Positions 6,024 to 64,000 of a stretch of DNA of 64,000 nt are shown here, piece by piece. The notes below the pieces were generated by a model, which saw only the letters and a list, made by a program, of their open reading frames with translations, had not been told where the DNA came from and ran no database searches. Every line of letters begins with the position of its first letter. Positions within the stretch are counted from its first letter, which is position 1. Source of the stretch: Acidobacteriota bacterium (GTDB taxonomy: Bacteria > Acidobacteriota > Terriglobia > Acidiferrales > UBA7541); the NCBI GenBank assembly GCA_003154775.1, contig PMES01000031.1, positions 4,334 to 68,333 on the forward strand. The letters are read 5' to 3'. The position numbers and the translations under genes are program-made.

Positions 6024-8663
6024 ATGAAAACCTGCCGCGTCTGTCAGCGGAGCTACTCCACTCATTTCGCCAACTGTCCCCAGGACGGGACGCCCCTCAT
6101 CCAGTCGGAAGAATGGGCCGAGGGGGAGCTGGTCCGTGGAAAATACCAAATCATTCAGAAGATCGGCCAAGGGGCCATGGGCGCGGTGTACAAAGCGTTG
6201 CACATGCACTTCCAGGAGCTGCGCGCGCTGAAGGTGATTGCGGCGGCCCTGGCGAGCGATAAGAAGTTCGTCAAGCGTTTCGAGCAAGAGGCCATCCTGG
6301 CGCGGAAGCTCCAGCACCCCAATGCGGTGCGCGTGGACGACATTGACGAAACGGAAGACGGCCAACCGTTCATTGTCATGGAGTACATCGAGGGCAAGAA
6401 CCTGAGGGATGTCATCGCCGAAGAAGGCCCGATGACGCCGACGCGGGTGGCCTCGATCATCCGGCAAGTGGCCTCGGCGCTGGACGCGGCGCACCACTTG
6501 GGAATCATTCACCGCGACATCAAGCCGGAGAACATCGTTCTCATCCAATCGCAAAAGGAAGTTGTGGCCAAGGTGCTGGATTTCGGCATCGCCAAGCTCA
6601 AGGAAGGCCTCAGCGGTTCCTCCGCGACTTCCATGACCGGCACAGGAATGGTGGTGGGCACGCCGCTGTACATGTCCCCGGAACAGGCCATGGCTTCGCC
6701 CGGCAAGGACCTCGACGGCCGGTCGGACATTTATTCGCTCGGCGTCGTGATGTATCAAATGCTGACGAACGAACTCCCGATTCAAGGCGACACTTCGCTG
6801 CAAATCGTGATGGCGCACATCCAGACTCCTCCCATTCCCATTCAATGCGCGCAAGCCGGAGTAAAAATTCCCCAGCCCCTCGCTGATCTGGTGATGAAGT
6901 GCCTGGCAAAAAATCGCGAAGAGCGGCCCGCGAACGGGCAGGCAATCATTGAGGCGCTGGACCGGTGGGAATTGGAAAGGCGTGAAAAAGAAGAAGGAGA
7001 GACGCTTTTGGTTGCGCCCGGGGGTGCCACGCCGCGCCGGGAAACGGCGGCGCGTTCGACGGTGCAGGTGGCGAAGGGTTCCGCATCCGTGAATCCGGCG
7101 GGAACAATTGGGGTTGCGCCCGCAGGCCAGCAAGTTTCATCGCGTTCGGCGCGTAGTTGGATTCCCTGGGCCGCGTTGTTTGTCGTGGCGGCACTTGGCA
7201 TTGCCGGCGGGTGGCGGTACCGCGGCGTGTTGCTCCGGGCCGTAGCTCGGCGCGCGAATTCCGCGGCTTCTTCGAGTGCGTCCCAGCCAAAGACGGAGAC
7301 GCCCAGCCCGGCGCATCAGGCGGACACTTTGCCCGGGATTCCAACGGAAAAGCCCGTTGCACCGGCAGCCGCCTCGGAGAATCTTGCCGCGGAGAACGGA
7401 GCCGCTCCTCCAGCATCGCCTTCCACGAAACCGGTGCTGCCGCCGGACCCGGCGAAGACCAAATACTACACCGACGCTGCGGGACGCAAAGTCTCGAATG
7501 CGGTTGGTACGGCGGCCGAGCACAACGAATTCAAGGCGGTGCAAGCCGAAAAAGACGAGGCGCACCAGATCCAGCGCCTGAACGACTTCGTGTCGCGGTT
7601 CCCGAATTCCGAGCTGCTTGTGGATGCTTATGCGCTGTACTACCGGGACTATCGTGAACTCAAGAATTTCCCGAAGGTGATCGAGTACTCCGACAAACTT
7701 GTGGCGCTGGGAGACAAAGCCGATGCCAACGCGCGATTCCAGGCGCTCTACGCCCGCGCGATTGCCTACGACGCGCTGCCGCCAAATGATCCGGCGCAAG
7801 CGAAACAAGCGAAGGAAGCAGCCGCGCTGGGGTTGAGCACCCTGAACGAGATCAAGAAGCCCGAAAACGTCACGGAAGCAGCGTTTGCCGCGGAGAGAAA
7901 GCCAATCATGGTGTACCTGGATGAGACCTCGGGAACGGCCTCCATGACGTTGAAGGACTATGCGGGCGCAATCGGGGCCTACCGGGCCGCGCTGGCGTTG
8001 GATCCGGAAGATGGCAACGCCACTTACCAGCTTGGGCTGGCGTATTTGGGAGCGAGCCCGCCGCGCCAACTGGACGGCTTCTGGGCCTTGGCGCGCGCGG
8101 CTAGCGCGAAAAACAGGGGTGGGCCGCAACCGCAAGAGATCAAGGCGTACCTGAAAAAACTGATGGCGAGCTACGAGCAAACGGGATGCCCGAGCCTGGT
8201 TGACGCCCAGCTCAGCGAATTGATGCAAGTTGCGGGTAGCTCTTCGGAGCGCCCGGAAAGTTACAGCCTGCCGAGCAAGGCCGACCTGGACGCCGCGAGA
8301 AACGTCATGACGATTACCAGCGTCGTGGCGGACATAAAGGGCCCCGCCGACAAAGCCAAGGCGACTTGGCTGGCGGCTTGCGGAATGGAATTTCTGAACT
8401 TACCCAGCAAAGTAATCAGCGTGGTGCAGGGCGATCCCGTTGTTTTGAAAGTGGCCCTGGTGACCACCGAACTGGAATTCCGGGCGGCGCGGAGGGCGAA
8501 CATGGATGTCAGCGTTGCCGGGCAGCCGGAGGCGGCGACGCTTCAAGTGGGCAGCCTGGTGCGCTTTACGGGCACCCTCTCCGGTTACGACCGGACGCCT
8601 CTGATGCTGCACTGGCAGAAAGCCAGAATCAATCCGCACGATATCCCGGCGGCCAGCAAGTAG
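6024..8663 (+). CDS. Hanks-type Ser/Thr protein kinase with N-terminal zinc ribbon, TM helix and TPR-like C-terminal region
   Basis: Kinase motifs IGQGAMG, RALK, HRDIKPEN, DFG and SPEQ. N-terminal CxxC..CPxDG, TM segment WIPWAALFVVAALGIAGGW, and TPR-like AIGAYRAALALDPEDGNATYQLGLAY. Confidence 0.92.
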   Translation: MKTCRVCQRSYSTHFANCPQDGTPLIQSEEWAEGELVRGKYQIIQKIGQGAMGAVYKALHMHFQELRALKVIAAALASDKKFVKRFEQEAILARKLQHPNAVRVDDIDETEDGQPFIVMEYIEGKNLRDVIAEEGPMTPTRVASIIRQVASALDAAHHLGIIHRDIKPENIVLIQSQKEVVAKVLDFGIAKLKEGLSGSSATSMTGTGMVVGTPLYMSPEQAMASPGKDLDGRSDIYSLGVVMYQMLTNELPIQGDTSLQIVMAHIQTPPIPIQCAQAGVKIPQPLADLVMKCLAKNREERPANGQAIIEALDRWELERREKEEGETLLVAPGGATPRRETAARSTVQVAKGSASVNPAGTIGVAPAGQQVSSRSARSWIPWAALFVVAALGIAGGWRYRGVLLRAVARRANSAASSSASQPKTETPSPAHQADTLPGIPTEKPVAPAAASENLAAENGAAPPASPSTKPVLPPDPAKTKYYTDAAGRKVSNAVGTAAEHNEFKAVQAEKDEAHQIQRLNDFVSRFPNSELLVDAYALYYRDYRELKNFPKVIEYSDKLVALGDKADANARFQALYARAIAYDALPPNDPAQAKQAKEAAALGLSTLNEIKKPENVTEAAFAAERKPIMVYLDETSGTASMTLKDYAGAIGAYRAALALDPEDGNATYQLGLAYLGASPPRQLDGFWALARAASAKNRGGPQPQEIKAYLKKLMASYEQTGCPSLVDAQLSELMQVAGSSSERPESYSLPSKADLDAARNVMTITSVVADIKGPADKAKATWLAACGMEFLNLPSKVISVVQGDPVVLKVALVTTELEFRAARRANMDVSVAGQPEAATLQVGSLVRFTGTLSGYDRTPLMLHWQKARINPHDIPAASK

Positions 8664-8684
8664 TCCGCGTGAATAACGATTCCC

Positions 8685-8794
8685 AGCGCCGGAGGCGCGC
8701 ATTTTGCGCCCGCCGTTTTCTGGAGGGCGCGAAACACGTTAGCTCAGGGCGTAAGCCCTGGGTACGCAACAAACACAATCGCAAGCGCCGGAGG
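8685..8794. repeat. REP-like element: central palindrome flanked by direct repeats
   Basis: CAGGGC-GTAA-GCCCTG hairpin (8745-8760) flanked by AGCGCCGGAGG at 8685 and 8784; intergenic. Confidence 0.55.
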
Positions 8795-8915
8795 ACGCGG
8801 CACATCCCCCACCCGCCAGCGCCCAACGACCAATAATCCAAAAAATTCTCAACCTGCCCTTCTCTTGTATTCACCGGAGCCGTCCGTCACAATATCGCCC
8901 GCGCCGACAAACCCC

Positions 8916-9323
8916 ATGCTCAACTCCCTGCCCGCACCTATTCTGCTGGACATCGCGATACTCTTCACCGCGCTCGCTTGGGGGCTCGGGCTTTACCTGG
9001 TGGACAAACGGGTGTACCTCTTTGCCTCGCTGGCGATTGGTTGTTTTGTGTGCCTGTTCGGGTACAGCGTCGCGAGCCTGGGTGCGCCGGTCTGGGCCGT
9101 GGTTGCCGCGCCACTTCCTTTGGATGTGTTGCTGCTCTGGTATGTCCTGCGAAAACCACGAAAAATAGCACTGGCTTACGTGTTGATTTGGGCGATTTAC
9201 ATCGTTTTTCACATGCTTCTTAGTTCTTTGCTTCGTTACGACTCCCTGGTCCCCGCATGGAGACTCCATTCCTGGGCGCGCCTCATGCGTCCGCCGTTTT
9301 CTGGGGAAAGCTCCACACGCTAG
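8916..9323 (+). CDS. Hypothetical integral membrane protein (about 4 TM helices)
   Basis: Almost entirely hydrophobic ORF. Start placed at ATG 8916 (MLNSLPAP) rather than 8865. Confidence 0.65.
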   Translation: MLNSLPAPILLDIAILFTALAWGLGLYLVDKRVYLFASLAIGCFVCLFGYSVASLGAPVWAVVAAPLPLDVLLLWYVLRKPRKIALAYVLIWAIYIVFHMLLSSLLRYDSLVPAWRLHSWARLMRPPFSGESSTR

Positions 9324-9586
9324 CGGACATACCTTGAAGATAATGTGCACTAATGTTTATGAGGATACAACCACGGATTTTCTTTCTACCGGGCAATTTG
9401 CTAGCCACCCCTCTGCAACGCTTGCAAACCCCGAAGCCACGCTATCGGCGGGTGGCGCACCCCTTTGTAGGCAGGCAAGACGTGGGCGGGTGGCAGACCC
9501 TTAAAGCGGTGAGGCAATCATGGGTGGCCTATTCGGATCGCGCCACGCACGTCCACCACGCTCTGCGCTGTGATAGCATCGGGAGT

Positions 9587-9748
9587 ATGATGAGCACTCA
9601 CCGAAAACAGCCCTGCCGCTGCGGGCACGGTTCCACAATCCACAGGCCGGAGCCCGGAAGAGCGAATCGACCTCGCGTAATCTGCTATTACCCCGGCTGC
9701 AAATGCAAGAAGTACAGGCCGGCGGCTGGCGCACGCTCAAAGCGCTGA
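9587..9748 (+). CDS. Small Cys/His-rich putative zinc-binding protein (53 aa)
   Basis: GGGAG upstream of ATGATG; pattern CxCxHx4H...Cx4CxC (CRCGHGSTIH...CYYPGCKC). Confidence 0.5.
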   Translation: MMSTHRKQPCRCGHGSTIHRPEPGRANRPRVICYYPGCKCKKYRPAAGARSKR

Positions 9749-9918
9749 GGCAATCTCGGGTAGCCTATCATTTACGGCGTTCGTAAAGGGTGAGCCCGCT
9801 CTTCGCCCTGCTCTCTTCCTTCCTCCCCTTTACCCTGCTTGCCCCGAGCTTCGAGGGGAGCGCTCTTCGCGAAGGGCTCCTCGTGCCAGTTTCGAAACTA
9901 GTACCCACTTATTACATA

Positions 9919-9947
9919 TTGACATGTGGTAAATAACGTGCTACCAT
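9919..9947 (+). promoter_or_regulatory. Near-consensus sigma-70 promoter with extended -10
   Basis: TTGACA (9919-9924), 17-bp spacer, TGn plus TACCAT (9942-9947). Confidence 0.65.
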
Positions 9948-10328
9948 GTCTTATGAATACTCGCCACCATCCCGCCCGCGCTCCAGACTCCCCCGACAAA
10001 CTCACTCCCTGCACACCAGTTCGCATCAATAGCAAAACAAACGCTTTATCCGTATTTTCACCTTTTGCGGGAAAGCATCATGGAGCCCATTGCGGACAAG
10101 AGCGGACAAAAAGATAGAGCAGCATGGTTCCTCAAGGTCTGGTTACCATGACGCGTAACAACAGAGCCATCTATCCCTCTTATCGCCGCTGCAAGACGTA
10201 TGAATTGGCTGATGCGCCACGGGGCGATATCCTGCCGCGTTTGCCACCGCATCCAGCCGCGTGACAAAGCCCGCCGGGTAACCAATGTCGTTACTACGGG
10301 AACTCAATCGCCCGGCCGAACCACAGCT

Positions 10329-10967
10329 TTACACTGAGGCTATCAACCGGCGGGCCAAAGCTACTGCCGAGTTCGCATTCTCGCTGTAGCCGTCAGCGCC
10401 GATCTCGTTGGCAAATTCCTGGGTCACCGGTGCGCCACCAATCATCACTTTGATTTTCTCGCGGATGCCCGCTGCCTTCAATGCCTCGATCGTGGTCTTC
10501 ATGGAGGGCATCGTCACCGTCAGCAGAGCGGAGAGGGCCAGGATGCTGGCGTTGGTATCCTTCAACGCCGCAATGAACTTCTCCGGCGGCACGTCCGCAC
10601 CAACGTCGATCACTTCAAACCCGCCACCTTCGAGCATGGACACGACCAGATTCTTGCCGATGTCGTGAAGGTCGCCCTTCACCGTTCCGATGACCACGCG
10701 TCCCACCGGTTTCGCGCCGGAAGCGGAAAGTAAAGGGCGCAACAGATCCAACGCTCCCTTCATCGCACGGCCCGAAAGGAGCAATTCCGGAACGAAATAC
10801 TCTTCACACTCAAAAAGACGCCCCACCTCGGCCATTGCCGGGATCATCGTGTTGGCAATCAATTCCCCAGGGTCCATCTTTTCGGCGATTGCCTGTTGCG
10901 TAATGGCGACCGCTTTCTTTGAGTCACCGTTCACGATTGCATCATGAAGTTGCTGCAAGTCTGCCAT
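10329..10967 (-). CDS. Corrinoid (cobalamin-binding) protein, MtbC/MttC family
   Basis: B12-binding cap (MIPAM.EVG.LF...EYFVPELL) and GDLHDIGKNLV (DxHxxG). Start at ATG 10967 after a GAAGGGAG RBS. Confidence 0.92.
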   Translation of the reverse strand: MADLQQLHDAIVNGDSKKAVAITQQAIAEKMDPGELIANTMIPAMAEVGRLFECEEYFVPELLLSGRAMKGALDLLRPLLSASGAKPVGRVVIGTVKGDLHDIGKNLVVSMLEGGGFEVIDVGADVPPEKFIAALKDTNASILALSALLTVTMPSMKTTIEALKAAGIREKIKVMIGGAPVTQEFANEIGADGYSENANSAVALARRLIASV

Positions 10968-36777: not shown

Positions 36778-37050
36778 CGGACCTCCCAAGGGACAAACAC
36801 ACCCCACGCAGAGTTCTGGCCCGGGGTATGCAAACAATAGTCCGCGGGGATGCGCGCCGCAAATACAGTATCCCAAGTGGGTTCCTGAAAGTAACTAGTC
36901 GCAAGAACAGGTAACCAGTTGTACCAGGGCCAGACGGAGATCAGGCGAACGGCGGGCGGGTGTGGCCGTTGCTGATCTAGACGATCAGATCGCGCTGGTT
37001 GCGCAAAAAGCGCGAAGCAAACTGCTCGTGCTTGATGAGCGCGGGTCCGC

Positions 37051-37389
37051 TCACGGAGTGATGGTGACCAGAAGATCCTTGGGCTCGACGTGCTGCCCGG
37101 GCGTCACCAGCAGCTTGCTGATGCGGCCCGCAATCGGCGCATGAATCTTGGACTGCATCTTCATGGCTTCCAGTGTCAGAAGTTTAGCGCCACGCTCCTC
37201 GACCGGCCCCTTTCCGGCGCCCACCTGGTAGGCTTCATCGGCCTTGAAGCGATGCAAGGCCAGGCGATCCTCCAGAGAGTAGATGGCGACGGTGCACATT
37301 CCCAGCTCATTGGCGGCGCGGAAAATACGGATGGCGATTTCGCTGCGATTGGCAGCCAGCACTTTGCGAATAGGTGGCTTCTTCTTCAT
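37051..37389 (-). pseudogene. pyc: Pyruvate carboxylase remnant with large in-frame internal deletion
   Basis: N-terminus [22 protein letters not shown]...HRFKADEAY is fused directly to the biotin-carrier tail EAMKMQ..IHAP..G.I..LLV; 112 aa in total. Confidence 0.85.
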
Positions 37390-37768
37390 GGGAGAGCGTC
37401 AGCCCGGCTCGTTCGGGCAATGCGAAACTTTACATTGTTTCACGGGGAGACCGACAGTGCGGACTGCTTTTTTCAATGCAGCACAGCGGAAAATCTCATC
37501 CTAGTGTTTCAGCAGGGCCACAGCAAAGCGTTTCCTTGCCACGGGCTTTCTGCGGAGAAAGTCATCTGGAGGGGACCGTGGAGTTCGCCACTGCATGCGC
37601 GAAGTGGTAAGGGCGGATATCAGGTAGGTGCCCCTGATTAGCGCTTGCAGTCAAGCGGATAACTTCAGAGTGCCCCGTGATTCGGTCTCAATCGCGGAAG
37701 AGCATTACGCTCCCTGCGTGAACAGCCGGCGAGACACGCTCGAAAAAGAAATTGAGAAGGCGTTGAAG

Positions 37769-38479
37769 CTATGACGACCGCGAATTCCTAATCTTGTTTT
37801 CGTCGATGTATTTGAGATTTTGTTCGCTAGAGGAATAGGGAATCACATCGGGTGTAACACCGAACCAAAGAAATATCTGTCGCACCAACAAAAATGCTGC
37901 GACATCGGGACGGGATTGCAGCTGTTCGGTCGCCACGGGCAGCCGACGGGTGGTGGACGCTGTGGGAGCAACATGTTTGTCATCCGTGAACGAGAACGAG
38001 ATGGTCGATACTGGATGTGGGATCAGGAACAGTTTCGACGTGCCGAAGAATGCGTTTCGAATTTCGACCTTCAATTCGACCTCGGTCGGCTGGGGCTCCA
38101 TATACTTCGTTAAGGCCGAGCACAGTCTGCAAAAATTGAGAGAGAACTCGATCATCGCCAATGTGTTCAAACGAGGCATTTCGCGGAAATTGTTGTCGTT
38201 CAAGCCCCATGACAGGTAATCGTTAGCCGCTGATACGCGCACAAGCAGTGAGCCGTCCTCATATACTTGAATGCGCTTGCGCTCGGCACTCGTTAGTTCG
38301 ATATAGTCGCCTTTGATGATTTGTGCGTGGCTATTCGTTGTAAGGTCCCATCCCGCGTAGCGCAGCTGGCCAGGATTTTCGAGGAGCGATTTGAGAGGTC
38401 CGGCCTCAAAGAGATTCTTATAGGCAGTGGTTTGAAGCGGAACCATTGAGTAGATGAAGACTGGCATCTCGTTCTTCAT
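37769..38479 (-). CDS. Hypothetical protein, partner of the upstream AlbA_2/Schlafen gene
   Basis: 236-aa ORF with lower GC; ATGA overlap with the upstream gene; LLENPGQLRYAGWDL segment. Confidence 0.75.
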   Translation of the reverse strand: MKNEMPVFIYSMVPLQTTAYKNLFEAGPLKSLLENPGQLRYAGWDLTTNSHAQIIKGDYIELTSAERKRIQVYEDGSLLVRVSAANDYLSWGLNDNNFREMPRLNTLAMIEFSLNFCRLCSALTKYMEPQPTEVELKVEIRNAFFGTSKLFLIPHPVSTISFSFTDDKHVAPTASTTRRLPVATEQLQSRPDVAAFLLVRQIFLWFGVTPDVIPYSSSEQNLKYIDENKIRNSRSS

Positions 38480-39168
38480 AAGGAATCATCATCCAGTATG
38501 CGTGCCGTTCGTTCGTCATAGACTTCGTCCGGAGTTTTTGTAGGCGGCGCAGGTCGCGTTTGGGCTTCAATCAAGGCGTCGAGTTTCGCTTCAACACGAG
38601 CGAGGGTCTGAGGAACCGGGTGTTTGCCGCTCTGTGTGTATTTGTATAGCTCGGCGATGGTGAAAGGGTCGTTCGAACTATCATTCCGCTTTGCAATGCC
38701 GAAAACGATCTGCTTCAGTTCGGCTCCGGAGTCGACGACTTTGGCGATAAGGAAAAACTTGTGGCTCGCGCTCTGCGGCTGAACCTCAATGACGCCGAGA
38801 CCCTGCGTCGCCTCCGCGTTCACTGGCAACCAATAAACTTTCAAATCCCTGATCGCCGGATAGACGTGCTCTTTGATGATGCCAAGGTATTGCGCCACAT
38901 CAAACTCAGCTTGGGAACAGAGGTCGTGCGCGCCGATTCGTTCGGTTTTGGCTTCGGCGGCGGGGGCAGTTGTTAATCCGACCAGGAGAATGCCACCTTC
39001 GGCGTTCGCAAAAGCTGTAATATCCTTCGCAAGCTCGTAACGACCTGCTGGCGTCGCGAAATCGTAGGGATTTTTTCTTTTCGCTTCAAGCCACGTATCC
39101 TCATCGAGGCCGATAAGCGCGGCAAATTGCCGAGTCTCAAGGATGGTCTTGATCGATTCGAATGACAT
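38476..39168 (-). CDS. AlbA_2 / Schlafen-like domain protein
   Basis: E23-x4-E28-A-K30, then KD49ITAFANAEGGILLVG, the AlbA_2 (PF04326-type) signature. Confidence 0.85.
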   Translation of the reverse strand: MSFESIKTILETRQFAALIGLDEDTWLEAKRKNPYDFATPAGRYELAKDITAFANAEGGILLVGLTTAPAAEAKTERIGAHDLCSQAEFDVAQYLGIIKEHVYPAIRDLKVYWLPVNAEATQGLGVIEVQPQSASHKFFLIAKVVDSGAELKQIVFGIAKRNDSSNDPFTIAELYKYTQSGKHPVPQTLARVEAKLDALIEAQTRPAPPTKTPDEVYDERTARILDDDSL

Positions 39169-39416
39169 AAGAATCGGCTGCGTTCAGGATACCGAAAGGG
39201 CACAATCCCAAGCAACTAGAAGATCCTCTTTTCGAATAGCAGGAGATCACGAACGTATCGTCTGCAACTCGGAAATTATCTGCCGCATCCTTTCGTCCGC
39301 TGCGAACAGGCAACGCAGGAATTGTCGCCACTTAGAAGCTGAGCGGCCATCTCAGGTCGGCAAAGCATACTCGGGAGACTCTGGGGACTTTGCCCCAGTT
39401 AGGCTGGAGCCTGCCG

Positions 39417-40040
39417 TCAGTACTTGCGCAGGACGCCGATGACGCGGCCCTGGATCTTAACGTCGGCGGCAGCCACCAGGATGGGCGGCATTTCCGAATT
39501 GGCAGGCTGCAGGCGAACTTTCCCCGAGCCTTCGCGATAGAATCTCTTGAGCGTGGCATCATCGCCGCCCACCAGAGCAACAACGATATCCCCGCCATTG
39601 GCTACCTGGGTCTGTTCGCAAACCACATAATCGCCATCCATGATGTGATCTTCAATCATGGAATTGCCTTTCACCTGCAGCACGAAAGAATTGCCGCCAC
39701 GGGCAAAATCACCCAAGGAAATGGTCTCGCGCTCCTCGACGGCTTCCAGCGGGCGGCCGGCGGCGATGCGGCCAACCAGCGGAAGTTCCTGGATGCGCCG
39801 CTCAATCACTTGTTCCTTCACGGACTTCGGCAATTGCAGGATTTCGATCGAGCGGCTCTGGTTATAACCGCGCCGGATAAAGCCCTTTTTCTCAAGGGTG
39901 CTGATGTGTTTGTGGACCGTGGCGAGCGAAGTGAGTTTCAATCCGCGTCCAATCTCTTCAAAACTCGGCGCGTAACCGTGCTTGGTCTCAAACGCGACGA
40001 GAAAATCAAGCACTTCTTTTTGGCGTTTTGTCAGGGCCAT
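39417..40040 (-). CDS. lexA: SOS repressor LexA
   Basis: LTKRQKEVLDF, PSFEEI wHTH, Ala-Gly cleavage site (GRIAAG), catalytic GNSM and TLKR. Confidence 0.97.
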   Translation of the reverse strand: MALTKRQKEVLDFLVAFETKHGYAPSFEEIGRGLKLTSLATVHKHISTLEKKGFIRRGYNQSRSIEILQLPKSVKEQVIERRIQELPLVGRIAAGRPLEAVEERETISLGDFARGGNSFVLQVKGNSMIEDHIMDGDYVVCEQTQVANGGDIVVALVGGDDATLKRFYREGSGKVRLQPANSEMPPILVAAADVKIQGRVIGVLRKY

Positions 40041-40138
40041 GAGTTCCTCCGTGTGCGTGCTGGTGCGGGGCGTGAATCAGTTGTCCAAGCCGCCTGTGGC
40101 TGCGCCGCGATCGGGAATCTGCTCAGCCATCCACGGCC

Positions 40139-40167
40139 ACTTTAGGCGAAAAGAAAGCGAACGTCAA
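40139..40167 (-). promoter_or_regulatory. lexA promoter with overlapping LexA (SOS) box
   Basis: Minus strand TTGACG-17 bp-TAAAGT; box GTTC-GCTTTCT-TTTC (40162 to 40148) overlaps the -35 and fills the spacer. Confidence 0.85.
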
Positions 40168-40229
40168 GTGGCATTTTGAATACTCGCGCGCGCAACTCAC
40201 TCTGTTCAGGAGTACCGCCGTGTGCTGTC

Positions 40230-40748
40230 ATGCCTAAAGATATGATGCCCGCAAAAAATCGTTCCGCAGGCGTAACCGCCGCCGCCACCCTCGCCGTACT
40301 CGGAAGCGTGATCGCCTTCTTCCTCTGGGGCTGGCTCTTCCTTCCTCTGATGAACCTCCCGCCGGACTCGAACGGTCAACACGCGTATCAAGTTCATCCG
40401 ATTACGTTCGCGCTGATTGCGCTGGTTCCGCCGTTTCTGGTGGCGCTTGGCATGCGCACGGGCATCGGCCTCTTCCAGCTTCGACCGCGGGCCCGGAAGG
40501 CTGCGCTTTGGTGGGCTTCGATCGCCCTGGCGTTCTGCTTGAGCATGATCGCGCTGCGGCCCTTCGAGACGTTTGCGATACCCGAGCATTTTGTCGCCGA
40601 AGCCGAATCGTTGAAGCAGCTCCTGGCGGTGTCCGCCGTATTCATGCTGCTTCCGGTCAGTATCTGGTGGCTTTTTTTCTTCCGGCTCAAGAGCGTGGTG
40701 GAGCAATTTGAAGGACGAAGTACGACGGCCAGTTCATCGGAGAGTTAA
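40230..40748 (+). CDS. Hypothetical membrane protein (about 4 TM helices)
   Basis: Four hydrophobic segments; divergent from lexA; start uncertain. Confidence 0.65.
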   Translation: MPKDMMPAKNRSAGVTAAATLAVLGSVIAFFLWGWLFLPLMNLPPDSNGQHAYQVHPITFALIALVPPFLVALGMRTGIGLFQLRPRARKAALWWASIALAFCLSMIALRPFETFAIPEHFVAEAESLKQLLAVSAVFMLLPVSIWWLFFFRLKSVVEQFEGRSTTASSSES

Positions 40749-51602: not shown

Positions 51603-51647
51603 GAACAAAAAGCAAACACTATGTTCGCTTTGTATTCTCCCTGTCAA
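51603..51647 (-). promoter_or_regulatory. Promoter with two LexA boxes upstream of the small ORF and recA
   Basis: Plus strand GAAC-N7-AAAC (51603-51617) and GTTC-GCTTTGT-ATTC (51623-51637); minus strand TTGACA (51647-51642)-18 bp-CATAGT. Confidence 0.82.
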
Positions 51648-61589: not shown

Positions 61590-64000
61590 ATGCCCACCCT
61601 TTTCGATATGGCACCTCGCCCCGATGGCGGCGAACTAAAGCCGAACGATGCGCAGCGGCGCGCGATTACCCACGGCGAAGGACCCCTGCTGGTGATCGCG
61701 GGCGCGGGCACAGGAAAAACCCGCGTCATCACGGAGCGCATCCGCCACCTCCTCGAATCGGATGCTACCCTGCTCGGGGAGAATATCCTTGGGCTGACGT
61801 TCACGAAAAAAGCCGCGGGTGAAATGAAGACGCGCGTGGTGAAGGCCGTCGGCGAACGCGGCAAGGACGTGGTGCTGGCGACGTTCCACTCTTTTTGCGA
61901 GACGCTGCTGAAGGAAGTCGATCCCAACCGCGTGGCGCTGGAATCAGTGGACCACTGGATCCTGCTGCGGCGGAATCTGGCGCGACTGAAACTTGAAAAG
62001 TACCGCCGCCTGGCCGAGCCCGGGCAATTCCTCAGCGATTTCATCCAGTTTTTCTCGCGTTGCCAGGACGAATTGGTGTCCAGCGGAGAATACCAGGCCT
62101 ATGCCGATCAGCTCGCCGCGGAATTGCAGGCGGAGAAGAGCGGCCTCGATGAAGACACCGGCAAGGAGCGCGCCGAACAGGTCGCACTGCAACAGGAGAT
62201 TGCCCGCGCCTACCGCGCCAGCGAAGAAATCCTGAGAGAGAAGCGGGCCGTGGCGCTCAACGGGCTCATCACCGAAGCCGTCGCGCTGCTCAAGCGCGAC
62301 ACCAAGCGGCGGCGGCAGCTTCAGGAGCGGTTCAAGCACGTCCTGGTGGACGAATTTCAGGATACCAATATCGCGCAGCTCGAATTGCTGCATCTGCTGA
62401 GCGCGGAATCGCGCAACATCGTCGTCGTGGGCGACAACGATCAGGCCATCTACCGCTTCCGCGGCGCTTCCTTCGGCAGCTTCAAGCTGTTCCTCCAGCG
62501 GTTCACCGGCTGGAAGGAAGGGCAGGACTCGACGCCGTATCGCGTGGCATTGATGGATAACTACCGTTCGACACCCAACATTCTGCGCGTGGCAACGCAA
62601 GTGATCGGCCAAAACGAGGTCAGCCCCGAATTCCCCAAGAAAGTCCTGCAAGCAAACAAGTCAGAAGGGGAGAAGATCCGCATTGTGGAGATGGAAACGC
62701 CCGAGGACGAAGCCTCGTGGGTGGCGGATGAACTCGAGCGGCTGCACGGCGCGGGGCGGCGATGGAAGGATTTTGCCGTGCTCTACCGGCAGCACGCGCA
62801 CCGCGACCAGTTGGTGGAAGAGCTGTCGCGGCGCAAGATTCCCTTCGTCATCAGCAAGCTTTCGATTCTGGAGCACCCGCTGGTGCGCGACGTCCTCGCT
62901 TATCTTCACTTGATCGCGCTGCCTTATGACGACATCGCTTGCGCGCGCGTGCTCTCCGCGCCGGCATGGCATCTGACGGCGGAGGACCTGGTGCGCCTGG
63001 CGGAGCGCGCCGCTAAGAAACGCGGCACGGCTCTTTACGATGTTTTGCAGACGCCACAATCGGAGCTGCCGTTTGACGCCTCGCACATTGCCCTGCCAAC
63101 GCTGCTGGAGTTTTTGGGTGCGCAACGCAAGACGCTAAGGAGGCGCACGGCCCGCGAAATCCTTGGCGATCTCATCGAGTGGCTGGAAGTGCCGCAGCGC
63201 GCCGCCACGCAGGACCGCAAGTACGTCAACCAACTCGGGCAATTCGTAAAGGAGTGGGAAGCGAAAAGCGAGACGCGGGGCTTGCCGGAATTTCTGGAGT
63301 ACCTGGATTATTTTCAGCAAGCCGGTGGAACTTTGAGCCTGGAAGATGATGCGCCCGGCGATGCCGTGCAGCTCATGACGGTGCATGGCGCCAAGGGCCT
63401 GGAGTTTTCGCACGTATTTCTGCTGCGCGTGAATTCCAACGCCTTTCCGCCGCGCAAGCGCTCGCCGCTTTTTGAATTTCCCGATCGCCTGATGAAGGAA
63501 GAATTGCCGGAGGGCGATTTTCACATTCAGGAAGAGCGCCGGCTTTTCTACGTGGCCCTGACGCGCGCCATGGAGCGGCTGACCATCACCACGCTGACCG
63601 AAAAGAAGGGCAAGGTGCCCGTCTTCATCGAGGACATCGTGATGGAGCCGGCCATCAAGCGGCGCGACGTCCTGCAACTCGCCCCGAAAAAGAAGACCAA
63701 AGCCGCGGACGTCACAATGGAACGGGCGGAAGCCCGCGCGGGCGAATTATTCGCGGCCAAGGAAGGGCCGCCCAAGATCTTTTCCCGCATCGCCAAGTGG
63801 GCGGAGGAATTTCATCCACCAACGCCCGAGCCCTTGAAGCTCAGCAGCTCCGCGGTGGATAACTACCGCAAATGCCCGCAGCAATATGCTTTCAGCTATC
63901 TTTGGTCCCTGAAGGAGGGGCCGCGGGCCACGCTGAGCTTCGGCAGCGTGATGCACACCACCATCAAGCGCTTCCTGGAGCAATTGAAAAAGGGCGCGAA
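61590..64000 (+). CDS. UvrD/PcrA-family SF1 helicase fused to a C-terminal PD-(D/E)xK nuclease, AddA/AdnB-like (partial, runs off the window end)
   Basis: Manual translation: AGAGTGKT, VDEFQD, VGDNDQAIYRFRGA, NYRS, MTVHGAKGLEF and EERRLFYVALTRA, then LSSSAVDNYRKCPQQY...GSVMH. Confidence 0.92.
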   Translation, partial: MPTLFDMAPRPDGGELKPNDAQRRAITHGEGPLLVIAGAGTGKTRVITERIRHLLESDATLLGENILGLTFTKKAAGEMKTRVVKAVGERGKDVVLATFHSFCETLLKEVDPNRVALESVDHWILLRRNLARLKLEKYRRLAEPGQFLSDFIQFFSRCQDELVSSGEYQAYADQLAAELQAEKSGLDEDTGKERAEQVALQQEIARAYRASEEILREKRAVALNGLITEAVALLKRDTKRRRQLQERFKHVLVDEFQDTNIAQLELLHLLSAESRNIVVVGDNDQAIYRFRGASFGSFKLFLQRFTGWKEGQDSTPYRVALMDNYRSTPNILRVATQVIGQNEVSPEFPKKVLQANKSEGEKIRIVEMETPEDEASWVADELERLHGAGRRWKDFAVLYRQHAHRDQLVEELSRRKIPFVISKLSILEHPLVRDVLAYLHLIALPYDDIACARVLSAPAWHLTAEDLVRLAERAAKKRGTALYDVLQTPQSELPFDASHIALPTLLEFLGAQRKTLRRRTAREILGDLIEWLEVPQRAATQDRKYVNQLGQFVKEWEAKSETRGLPEFLEYLDYFQQAGGTLSLEDDAPGDAVQLMTVHGAKGLEFSHVFLLRVNSNAFPPRKRSPLFEFPDRLMKEELPEGDFHIQEERRLFYVALTRAMERLTITTLTEKKGKVPVFIEDIVMEPAIKRRDVLQLAPKKKTKAADVTMERAEARAGELFAAKEGPPKIFSRIAKWAEEFHPPTPEPLKLSSSAVDNYRKCPQQYAFSYLWSLKEGPRATLSFGSVMHTTIKRFLEQLKKGA

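What the first reader, a model, noticed from the sequence alone, without database searches (positions are those of the whole stretch)
37769..39168. Two-gene Schlafen/AlbA_2 module immediately downstream of lexA
Seen: an AlbA_2-signature protein retaining E-x4-E-x-K and KD...AFAN.EGG is coupled (ATGA overlap) to an unknown 236-aa protein. Sampled lines of the partner gene are about 48% GC against a host of about 60%. The module is co-directional with lexA, 248 bp downstream. Established: the Schlafen core uses acidic residues for tRNA/rRNA cleavage in eukaryotic SLFNs, and bacterial Schlafen-domain proteins have been linked to phage defence. Inference: a split effector plus sensor/antitoxin abortive-infection module, possibly induced by read-through from the SOS-controlled lexA promoter.
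Basis: partly seen in the sequence, partly recalled or inferred. Interest (0 to 1): 0.7.

Follow-up and report, generated by a model that had tools for sequence, protein, structure and literature searches.

The report
Split bacterial Schlafen nuclease gene pair
Two overlapping genes next to lexA encode a Schlafen-type RNA-cutting enzyme and its partner, which is fused to that enzyme in other microbes. The pair is most likely a two-piece version of the recently described bacterial Schlafen anti-phage proteins, and it sits beside lexA by accident of insertion.

Summary
On the minus strand, lexA (39417-40040) is followed after 248 bp by a 230-aa Schlafen/AlbA_2 protein (38476-39168). That gene overlaps a 236-aa unannotated gene (37769-38479) by ATGA.

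The pair is not a frameshifted pseudogene:
- Every relative with upstream DNA (37 loci, down to 34% identity, two phyla) keeps two genes, mostly with the same 4-bp overlap.
- dN/dS is 0.14-0.31 for both genes.
- An independent assembly of the same strain has the identical junction.

A profile search found 828 clusters of the partner domain. In the 32 full-length clusters of 431-500 aa among the 147 best, it is the C-terminal half of a protein whose N-terminal half matches gene 1 end to end. Split and fused forms interconverted at least 5 times, so the two genes are one functional unit.

Gene 1 keeps Ex4(E/D)xK and has a Schlafen fold. Gene 2 has a weak TBP-like fold match, and TBP-like domains are a published class of Schlafen fusion partner.

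The lexA link is incidental. The pair is absent from 36 congeners, sits next to lexA in no other locus, lacks a LexA box, and has its own promoter-like motif.

The defence function is inferred, not shown. This is a new variant of a known kind, of moderate interest.

The parts
38476..39168 (-). Gene 1: 230-aa prokaryotic Schlafen (AlbA_2) nuclease subunit. The Slfn core is about residues 1-165, followed by a helical tail of about 65 aa that is modelled with low confidence.
   Evidence: PF04326 at 29.9 bits, above the 25.3 cut-off. AF2 pLDDT is above 88 for residues 1-140. Foldseek matches 2kyy, SLFN11 7fex and SLFN13 5yd0 with probability 0.99-1.0. dN/dS is 0.17-0.31.
39079..39102 (-). Codons for E23-D-T-W-L-E28-A-K30, the Ex4(E/D)xK catalytic motif of Schlafen RNases.
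   Evidence: Sequence. E23 and K30 are invariant, and position 28 is E or D, in 17 split and 32 fused relatives. The motif definition comes from PMC13056530.
38992..39027 (-). Codons for K48-D49-ITAFANAEGG (residues 48-59), the second Schlafen signature block.
   Evidence: D49, N55 and G59 are 32/32 in fused relatives, and K48 is 31/32. This block aligns to the AFAN..GG block of SLFN12, SLFN5, SLFN14 and CbCash.
38476..38479 (-). ATGA overlap of the gene 1 stop and the gene 2 start, implying translational coupling.
   Evidence: The same 4-bp overlap occurs in most of the 37 related loci that have upstream DNA. The junction is identical in the independent assembly L074.
37769..38479 (-). Gene 2: 236-aa partner subunit from an uncatalogued family. 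In other organisms it is the C-terminal domain of fused Slfn proteins. It is a probable sensor/regulator with a tentative TBP-like fold.
   Evidence: No Pfam, NCBIfam, PADLOC or PHROGs hit. A profile search found 828 clusters at 50% identity, many of them 445-491 aa with this domain at about residues 233-460 and an N-terminal half homologous to gene 1. AF2 gives pLDDT 83.7 and pTM 0.87. The best Foldseek hits are AdoMetDC and TBP at E about 1e-2 and TM 0.2-0.3. dN/dS is 0.14-0.21.
39186..39215 (-). Promoter-like motif TTGCTT-18 nt-TATCCT, ending 18 nt before the gene 1 ATG. There is no Shine-Dalgarno sequence, so the leader is short or absent.
   Evidence: The same TTGCnn-17/18-TAnnCT arrangement lies at the same distance in 5 of 9 loci compared (window, L001, L005, L027, L028), although the flanking DNA is otherwise unrelated. 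This rests on sequence only.
37447..39416 (.). The 1970-bp segment specific to this genome. It sits between the lexA stop and the start of the pyc remnant and is 52.6% GC.
   Evidence: BLASTN against six same-genus genomes. Homology stops at 39417 and resumes at about 37446. No flanking repeats were found.

Best explanation
The two genes are the two halves of one protein unit. Gene 1 is a prokaryotic Schlafen (pSlfn) nuclease. Gene 2 is the domain that forms the C-terminal half of the same polypeptide in many relatives.

Shown here:
- The pair always travels together.
- It is usually translationally coupled through an ATGA overlap.
- Both genes are under purifying selection.
- The split and fused forms have interconverted repeatedly.
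- The pair is a rare, patchily distributed accessory cassette. It entered a variable slot between lexA and pyc in this strain only.

Inferred, by analogy with RorSlfn5 and EcoSlfn7:
- The two products form a complex, probably in equal amounts. The helical tail of gene 1 corresponds to the inter-domain linker of the fused forms and may serve as the docking element.
- The gene 2 subunit holds the Ex4ExK nuclease inactive until it senses a phage-derived cue.
- The nuclease then cleaves tRNA, shuts down translation and aborts or limits the infection.

Expression is most likely from the cassette's own promoter-like element. The position next to lexA is an accident of insertion, not SOS wiring.
For: Identity of gene 1:
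- It passes the PF04326 gathering score.
- Its model matches the Schlafen fold of SLFN11, SLFN13 and 2kyy.
- E23, E/D28, K30, E45, D49, N55 and R161 are kept in 32/32 fused relatives.

One functional unit:
- In all 37 loci with upstream DNA, an AlbA_2 gene directly precedes the gene 2 homologue, mostly with a 4-bp overlap.
- Two distant split representatives checked separately were also paired.
- 32 of the 147 best representatives are proteins of 431-500 aa. Their N-terminal halves align to gene 1 over profile positions 1-227 at E 1e-37 to 1e-67.
- The tree needs at least 5 changes between split and fused states on well-supported branches, and 15 by parsimony.

Not a pseudogene:
- dN/dS is 0.14-0.31 for both genes.
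- The junction is identical in the same-strain contig L074.

Accessory and mobile:
- Present in 1 of 37 genomes of the genus and 3 of 401 in the phylum.
- Also found in a Chloroflexota MAG.
- Low GC.
- DNA homology among relatives ends at the ORF boundaries.

Defence flavour of the contexts:
- One fused relative sits between hsdS and hsdR.
- Another is followed by a ResIII helicase and an MNT nucleotidyltransferase.
- Others lie beside UvrD-like helicases and a GmrSD fragment, VapBC/PIN pairs, or Cas1, CHAT, DUF4238 and T5orf172 genes.
- Transposases and integrases also occur nearby.

Literature:
- pSlfn proteins are phage-activated tRNases fused to sensor domains. TBP-like domains are a listed fusion class at 1.5% of pSlfn proteins (PMC13056530).
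Against: - No experiment or transcript data bear on this locus.
- Defence-gene enrichment around the split clade is weak. Among 149 neighbouring ORFs from 35 loci no recurrent partner appears, and several loci are housekeeping (rnpA-yidC, tsaE, nifU).
- The window locus itself lies among housekeeping genes.
- Neither gene matches any PADLOC model, and no relative was found in IMG/VR.
- The TBP-like fold call for gene 2 rests on weak Foldseek scores (E about 0.01, TM 0.2-0.3). I could not confirm that the published TBP-like fusion class is this family, because its supplementary tables were not held.
- The residue matching the third catalytic acid of eukaryotic SLFNs (E57 here) varies within the family.
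- Whether gene 2 senses, inhibits, activates or helps bind substrate is unknown.
Confidence: 0.6

Rival explanations
1. A classical toxin-antitoxin pair. Gene 1 is an RNase toxin and gene 2 a labile protein antitoxin that neutralises it. The module stabilises mobile DNA or triggers abortive infection when the antitoxin is degraded.
For: The pair is small, translationally coupled, mobile and self-contained. In two loci it lies next to VapBC/PIN modules. The nuclease motif is retained.
Against: The two halves are covalently fused in about a quarter of full-length representative clusters, and fusion or fission recurred at least 5 times. That is not expected for a toxin and a degradable antitoxin. 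Gene 2 is large (236 aa), well folded (pTM 0.87) and strongly conserved (dN/dS 0.14-0.21), and it has no HTH, RHH or other DNA-binding domain for autoregulation. The nuclease gene comes first.
Confidence: 0.15
2. An SOS-coupled module. The pair is transcribed by read-through from the LexA-repressed lexA promoter, so DNA damage or prophage induction switches it on.
For: The pair is co-directional with lexA and 248 bp downstream. The only hairpin after lexA (39381-39398) has no U-tract and folds no better than shuffled sequence (z -0.39), so there is no clear terminator. The lexA promoter carries a conserved LexA-box-like GTTCGCTTTCTTTTC.
Against: lexA adjacency exists only in this strain. The pair is absent from 36 congeners, whose lexA-pyc slot holds other genes. 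No lexA occurs in about 50 other loci, apart from the same-strain contig L074. The spacer has no LexA box; its best sites have 2 of 8 core mismatches. A promoter-like motif shared with unlinked relatives lies directly before gene 1. Any read-through would be incidental to this strain and not a property of the system.
Confidence: 0.07
3. A non-immune nucleic-acid-handling module, for example a regulator or RNA-processing factor built on an AlbA_2 nucleic-acid-binding domain. The published survey notes that 30% of pSlfn genes are not near defence genes.
For: Many split-clade loci are flanked by housekeeping genes, and no recurrent defence neighbour appears. There is no PADLOC hit. PMC13056530 allows for non-immune roles.
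Against: The distribution is extremely patchy, at under 1% of genomes in the phylum with transfer between phyla. GC is low and the slot is variable. The catalytic motif is strictly retained. Some fused relatives sit inside a type I R-M operon or next to restriction and helicase genes.
Confidence: 0.12
4. A single fused gene broken by a recent frameshift or an assembly error, making this a pseudogene.
For: Fused relatives of about 460 aa exist.
Against: The whole clade around the window (37 representative clusters, down to about 35% identity) is split. The ATGA junction is conserved in loci of 34-88% identity. Both genes are under purifying selection. The independent contig L074 has the same junction.
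Confidence: 0.01

Closest known systems
Prokaryotic Schlafen defence proteins (pSlfn1-55; RorSlfn5, EcoSlfn7), Perez Taboada et al., Nat Microbiol 2026 (PMC13056530)
   Same: An N-terminal Slfn/AlbA_2 nuclease with the Ex4(E/D)xK motif, combined with a C-terminal non-catalytic domain thought to act as the sensor. The genes are accessory and patchily distributed. 'TBP-like' domains are one of the listed fusion partners, at 1.5% of pSlfn proteins.
   Different: Here the partner domain is a separate, translationally coupled polypeptide, whereas 97.1% of published pSlfn proteins are single-chain fusions. The partner family is absent from Pfam and PADLOC. Neither the TBP-like class nor any split form was tested experimentally. 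I could not verify that the published TBP-like class is this family.
PrrC anticodon nuclease in the EcoprrI type I R-M locus (recalled from my own knowledge, not checked in the literature here)
   Same: One fused relative (L077) lies exactly between hsdS and hsdR, as prrC does. Both would be latent tRNA-directed nucleases.
   Different: The nuclease fold is unrelated, since PrrC has an ABC-ATPase-like N-domain and its own nuclease domain. The window's pair is not in an R-M operon, and only one such locus was seen.
Cash (CRISPR-associated Schlafen, Csx15-Slfn), Nat Commun 2026 (PMC13462974)
   Same: A Schlafen tRNase effector controlled by a separate sensing module. CbCash is the best sequence match among solved structures, though the match is weak (E 0.03).
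   Different: Cash is activated by cA4 through a fused Csx15 Rossmann-like domain within type III CRISPR loci. The pair here has no such domain and no conserved CRISPR linkage.
Type II toxin-antitoxin RNase modules (for example VapBC)
   Same: A two-gene, overlapping, mobile cassette that includes an RNase.
   Different: The partner is often fused to the nuclease, it is large and lacks a DNA-binding domain, and the nuclease gene comes first.

Membership tests
Prokaryotic Schlafen (pSlfn) nucleases | Slfn/AlbA_2 domain (PF04326) above the curated threshold | tested here: met
   29.9 bits against a cut-off of 25.3, E 8.6e-7, residues 23-167.
Prokaryotic Schlafen (pSlfn) nucleases | Catalytic Ex4(E/D)xK motif | tested here: met
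   E23-x4-E28-x-K30. The motif is conserved in 17 split and 32 fused relatives. Its definition comes from PMC13056530.
Prokaryotic Schlafen (pSlfn) nucleases | Schlafen nuclease fold | tested here: met
   Foldseek matches 2kyy (E 2e-4), pig SLFN11 7fex (8e-4) and SLFN13 5yd0 (1e-3), with probability 0.99-1.0.
Prokaryotic Schlafen (pSlfn) nucleases | Nuclease fused in one polypeptide to a sensor domain (97.1% of published members) | tested here: not met
   In the window and its whole clade the partner is a separate gene. The fusion is present in more distant relatives.
Prokaryotic Schlafen (pSlfn) nucleases | Location in defence islands or next to defence genes (69.6% of published members) | tested here: inconclusive
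   The window locus is flanked by lexA, a pyc remnant and bactofilin. Contexts among relatives are mixed: R-M, helicases, GmrSD, VapBC, Cas1 and transposases in some, housekeeping genes in others.
Prokaryotic Schlafen (pSlfn) nucleases | Phage-triggered tRNA cleavage and protection against phage | not testable with these tools
   Needs experiments.
pSlfn fused to a TBP-like domain (class listed in PMC13056530) | Partner domain has a TBP-like fold | tested here: inconclusive
   In the AF2 model (pTM 0.87), residues 7-124 have the beta-alpha-beta4-alpha order of a TBP repeat. TBP and AdoMetDC dominate the Foldseek lists in both PDB and BFVD, but only at E 0.01-0.1 and TM 0.2-0.3. The paper's Supplementary Table 2 was not available.
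Type II toxin-antitoxin system | Antitoxin is a separate, labile protein, usually with a DNA-binding domain for autoregulation | tested here: not met
   Gene 2 has no DNA-binding or other Pfam domain. It is frequently fused to the nuclease. Its stability in vivo was not testable.
SOS (LexA) regulon member | LexA operator in its promoter region | tested here: not met
   There is no GTTC-N7-GTTC-type site with 1 or fewer mismatches in 39169-39416. The lexA promoter itself has one, at 40148-40162.
SOS (LexA) regulon member | Conserved linkage to or co-transcription with lexA | tested here: not met
   Linkage occurs only in this strain.
R-M-embedded latent anticodon nuclease (PrrC-like arrangement) | Gene nested in a type I R-M operon | tested here: not met
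   Not so in the window. It is met in one fused relative, L077, with the order hsdS, Slfn fusion, hsdR N-terminus.

The most novel reading that the evidence does not exclude
The 236-aa protein represents an uncatalogued, widespread family, with at least 828 clusters at 50% identity. This sensor/regulator domain would control a Schlafen nuclease either in cis (fused) or in trans (as a separate, translationally coupled subunit). Some members would be guarded inside type I R-M operons in the way PrrC is. The split form would then be the first natural two-subunit Schlafen system, one in which sensing and cleavage can be separated biochemically.
Probability: 0.3. Interest if true: 0.6.

Novelty: new variant of a known kind. 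Interest (0 to 1): 0.38.

Why it matters
Bacterial Schlafen nucleases were shown only in 2025-2026 to be phage-activated tRNases, related to human SLFN11 and SLFN13. How their many fused sensor domains control the nuclease is largely unknown. A natural version with the sensor and the nuclease on separate polypeptides offers a simple way to study activation, because the subunits can be mixed, titrated and swapped. It also gives a name and a role to a large, unannotated protein family of at least 828 clusters. For this genome, the practical point is that the pair is strain-specific cargo in a variable slot. It is not part of the SOS regulon.

Tried and rejected
- Frameshift pseudogene: rejected.
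- SOS wiring: rejected as a property of the system.
- Flanking direct or inverted repeats marking a mobile element: none beyond chance.
- Rfam RNA in 36900-40400: none.
- Intrinsic terminator after lexA: the hairpin at 39381-39398 folds no better than shuffles, and no terminator-like site lies in the spacer.
- Homology between gene 1 and gene 2 (second Schlafen lobe idea): none by hhalign.
- Sequence match of gene 2 to solved structures: only RdgC, at E 0.27.
- Pfam scan of 16 gene 2 family members at E up to 10: nothing consistent.
- PADLOC on the split and fused forms: nothing.
- PHROGs: nothing meaningful.
- IMG/VR viral contigs: no relative.
- A conserved third gene: none among 149 neighbouring ORFs.
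- Supplementary tables of the pSlfn paper and its preprint: not held.
- Fusions of the partner domain to TIR or CHAT effectors, reported in earlier notes of this scan: not examined. Six hits of 263-315 aa have N-terminal extensions that do not match gene 1, and these remain unidentified.
Full report
**1. The observation**

All the genes concerned are on the minus strand.
- lexA is 39417-40040. It matches TIGR00498 at E 1e-60, with the Peptidase_S24 and LexA_DNA_bind domains.
- Gene 1 follows 248 bp downstream, at 38476-39168 (230 aa). It matches PF04326 (SLFN_AlbA_2) at 29.9 bits, above the gathering score of 25.3.
- Gene 2 is 37769-38479 (236 aa). Its ATG overlaps the gene 1 stop as ATGA.
- Gene 2 has no hit in Pfam, NCBIfam, PADLOC or PHROGs.
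- GC is 53.2% for gene 1 and 50.4% for gene 2, against 58.6% for the window. The pair lies at the 2.7th percentile of windows of equal size.

**2. Split or broken?**

The word-index search found about 90 homologues of each protein. Their lengths are almost constant (about 230 and about 236 aa), identity goes down to about 50%, and the same contigs appear in both lists.

I read or fetched about 50 loci.
- In all 37 loci that have DNA upstream of the gene 2 homologue, an AlbA_2 gene lies directly in front of it.
- The overlap is 4 bp in most. The rest have -1, -8, -11, +7 or +8.
- These loci range from 88% down to 34% protein identity.

The ATGA junction is conserved even where synonymous sites are saturated. 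For the two closest relatives, dN/dS is 0.17-0.31 for gene 1 and 0.14-0.21 for gene 2.

A 1609-bp metagenome contig (L074) is the same strain.
- It has no mismatches to the window and six single-base deletions.
- Two of those deletions fall inside lexA, so they are errors in that contig and not in the window.
- It spans the 3' end of lexA, the spacer, gene 1 and the start of gene 2.
- None of its indels is at the junction.

The pair is therefore not a frameshifted pseudogene or an assembly artefact.

**3. Fused relatives show one functional unit**

A profile of gene 2 was scored against 1.84 billion representative proteins.
- It found 828 clusters at E <= 1e-3, of which 122 were at E <= 1e-30.
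- Among the 147 best representatives other than the query's own cluster, 86 are stand-alone proteins of 200-250 aa.
- 32 are proteins of 431-500 aa in which the gene 2 domain occupies about residues 233-460.
- Those long proteins carry PF04326 at the N-terminus.
- A profile of gene 1 aligns to their N-terminal halves over positions 1-227, at E 1e-37 to 1e-67.

So gene 1, including its helical tail, plus gene 2 equals the fused protein cut at the domain boundary.

A tree of the gene 2 domain (124 rows) places the window in a clade of 37 representatives that are all split.
- In the rest of the tree, split and fused forms are interleaved.
- At least 5 state changes are forced by well-supported branches, and 15 are needed by parsimony.
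- The 'split' label was assigned by length. It was checked on two distant representatives, and both had an AlbA_2 gene in front.

Repeated fusion and fission is classical evidence that two proteins work as one physical unit.

**4. What the two halves look like**

*Gene 1*
- The AF2 model is confident for residues 1-140 (pLDDT above 88) and poor for the C-terminal helices.
- Foldseek finds the AlbA_2 domain 2kyy and the nuclease domains of SLFN11 and SLFN13, with probability 0.99-1.0.
- E23, E/D28, K30, Y35, E45, D49, N55, G59, G64 and R161 are kept in 32 of 32 fused relatives.
- In my alignment of split relatives, all of these except position 28 are invariant. Position 28 is E in all but one, which has D.
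- This fits the Ex4(E/D)xK active site that Perez Taboada et al. showed to be essential (E15A/D20A in RorSlfn5).
- The residue before GG, which I recall as the third catalytic acid of eukaryotic SLFNs, is E57 here but varies in the family.
- The invariant D49 or E45 may take that role instead. This is inference.

*Gene 2*
- The AF2 model is good (pLDDT 83.7, pTM 0.87).
- It has no significant structural neighbour.
- The top of both the PDB and the BFVD lists is filled by TATA-binding proteins and AdoMetDC, at E 0.01-0.1 and TM 0.2-0.3.
- Residues 7-124 have the strand-helix-four strands-helix order of a TBP repeat. The second half deviates from it.
- I therefore call the fold 'TBP-like' only tentatively.
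- Across 148 family members the most conserved positions are P36, R40, G43, G57, K68, D75, G76, L89, W91, N105, E111, F116, F206 and P214.
- The most conserved block, ENPGQLRxAGWDL, is a loop modelled with low confidence. It is a candidate interaction site.
- There is no homology between gene 1 and gene 2.

**5. The lexA neighbourhood**

*The pair is rare*
- It is absent from 36 other genomes of the genus and 24 further relatives.
- It is present in 3 of 401 genomes sampled across the phylum, one of them a fused 465-aa frame.
- It also occurs in a Chloroflexota (Limnocylindrales) MAG.

*The slot is variable*
- In six congeners, homology to the window ends at the lexA stop (39417). It resumes at about 37446, at the start of a pyruvate-carboxylase-like gene.
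- Between these points they carry other genes. These include a response-regulator/trypsin-like protease of 550-584 aa, a 443-468-aa protein and an Ogt-like methyltransferase.
- The slot holds different cargo in different strains, and the 1970-bp segment 37447-39416 is specific to this strain.

*No link to lexA elsewhere*
- No other locus has lexA nearby. The only lexA hit among all loci is the same-strain contig L074.
- DNA similarity between the window and its closest relatives (83-88%) ends within a few bases of the two ORFs.
- There are no flanking repeats.

*The lexA promoter and the spacer*
- The lexA promoter is TTGACG-17-TAAAGT at 40139-40167. It contains GTTCGCTTTCTTTTC, and the stretch around it (40130-40170) is 96-97% identical in three of the six congeners compared.
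- I recall that Acidobacterium LexA binds GTTC-N7-GTTC. Similar sites lie at the recA and uvrD loci of the window.
- The 248-bp spacer has no such site with fewer than 2 core mismatches.

*The cassette's own promoter*
- TTGCTT-18-TATCCT (39186-39215) ends 18 nt before the gene 1 ATG.
- The same TTGCnn-17/18-TAnnCT arrangement recurs at the same distance in L001, L005, L027 and L028, whose flanks are otherwise unrelated.

*Read-through*
- The hairpin after lexA is not a convincing terminator.
- Some read-through in this strain cannot be excluded. It would be incidental.

**6. Is it a defence system?**

*Literature*
- Prokaryotic Schlafen nucleases protect against phages.
- 97.1% of them are fused to presumed sensor domains, in 55 architectures.
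- 'TBP-like domains' make up 1.5% of these.
- RorSlfn5 senses a T5 tail-assembly chaperone through its Ig-like domain and then cuts the tRNA anticodon arm (PMC13056530).
- Cash proteins are cA4-activated Slfn tRNases (PMC13462974).
- An Enterococcus Slfn protein with an unannotated C-terminus also defends against phage (PMC13552941).

*Contexts in my loci*
- The fused relative L077 lies between hsdS (Methylase_S, E 4e-35) and the N-terminus of hsdR. As I recall, prrC occupies the same position in the EcoprrI locus.
- L076 is followed by a ResIII helicase and an MNT nucleotidyltransferase.
- L081 and L083 sit next to UvrD-like helicases, and L083 also next to a GmrSD fragment.
- L001 and L087 are next to PIN/VapBC.
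- L003 lies among Cas1, CHAT, DUF4238 and T5orf172 genes.
- Transposases and integrases occur in several loci.
- Other loci are plainly housekeeping.
- A tally of 149 neighbouring ORFs from 35 loci shows no recurrent partner and only scattered defence-type hits.
- No relative is present in IMG/VR.

The defence assignment therefore rests mainly on three things: homology to the pSlfn class, the retained active site, and the accessory, patchy distribution. Context gives moderate support, mostly from the fused branch.

**7. Most likely mechanism**

*Shown*
- Two co-inherited, translationally coupled subunits correspond to the two domains of a single-chain pSlfn.
- The nuclease motif is intact.
- The cassette is a self-contained accessory unit.

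*Inferred*
- The subunits form a complex.
- The gene 2 subunit keeps the nuclease latent and releases or activates it on sensing a phage cue.
- The nuclease then cleaves tRNA and arrests translation.

I give this 0.6 overall. The 'one split protein unit' part stands at about 0.9 and the 'phage-triggered tRNase' part at about 0.55-0.6.

*Rivals*
- A classical toxin-antitoxin pair (0.15), disfavoured by the recurrent fusions and by the nature of gene 2.
- A non-immune nucleic-acid function (0.12).
- A functionally meaningful SOS coupling (0.07).
- A pseudogene (0.01).

**8. Novelty**

The class (pSlfn) is published, and fusions to TBP-like domains are counted in that survey.
- I could not find a description of the natural two-gene form, or of this partner family as a named entity.
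- No library holds the partner family.
- Earlier notes of this scan report look-alike split Slfn pairs in at least four other genomes. They reached the same reading.
- Those notes are AI leads, not independent evidence, and my conclusions were drawn before I read them.

I rate this a new variant of a known kind, of moderate interest.

Noticed in passing
window 37051-37389 (-): A 112-aa ORF joins the first ~55 aa of a biotin carboxylase N-domain to the last ~45 aa of a biotinyl domain. In six same-genus genomes the two matching ends are about 3.1 kb apart, within a full-length pyruvate-carboxylase-like gene. This genome therefore carries an in-frame internal deletion right next to the inserted cassette.
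   Followed up: partly
window 37447-39416 and loci L020-L025: The interval between lexA and pyc is a variable cargo slot in this genus. Congeners carry a response-regulator/trypsin-like protease (550-584 aa), a 443-468-aa secreted-looking protein, an Ogt-like methyltransferase or a membrane protein in place of the Schlafen pair.
   Followed up: partly
window 40139-40167 (-): The lexA promoter-like site TTGACG-17-TAAAGT has a GTTCGCTTTCTTTTC box in its spacer. The stretch around it (40130-40170) is 96-97% identical in three of the six congeners compared. Similar GTTC-N7-GTTC-type sites lie at 51603-51637 and 61632-61646.
   Followed up: partly
L077:626-3431: A fused Slfn plus partner-domain protein (459 aa) is nested between hsdS and the start of hsdR of a type I R-M operon, with gaps of 1 and 9 nt. 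This is the position that prrC occupies in EcoprrI.
   Followed up: partly
L030:1866-3298: The same split pair (52% identity) occurs in a Chloroflexota (Limnocylindrales) MAG, which implies transfer between phyla.
   Followed up: no
L003:1927-3459 and 7420-10868: An 80%-identical copy of the pair lies among a solitary Cas1-like gene (510 aa), a Ser/Thr kinase, and DUF4238, T5orf172 and CHAT-domain genes. This is a possible defence island on a 331-kb contig.
   Followed up: no
P0209, P0258, P0264, P0268, P0295, P0304: Six gene 2 family members of 263-315 aa carry N-terminal extensions that do not match the Schlafen subunit. They may be mis-called starts, or fusions to other small domains.
   Followed up: no
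L074 (whole contig): A public metagenome contig is identical to window 38130-39744 except for six single-base deletions at short base runs. Two of them would break lexA, so the contig is error-prone. It shows that the strain is present in that sample.
   Followed up: yes
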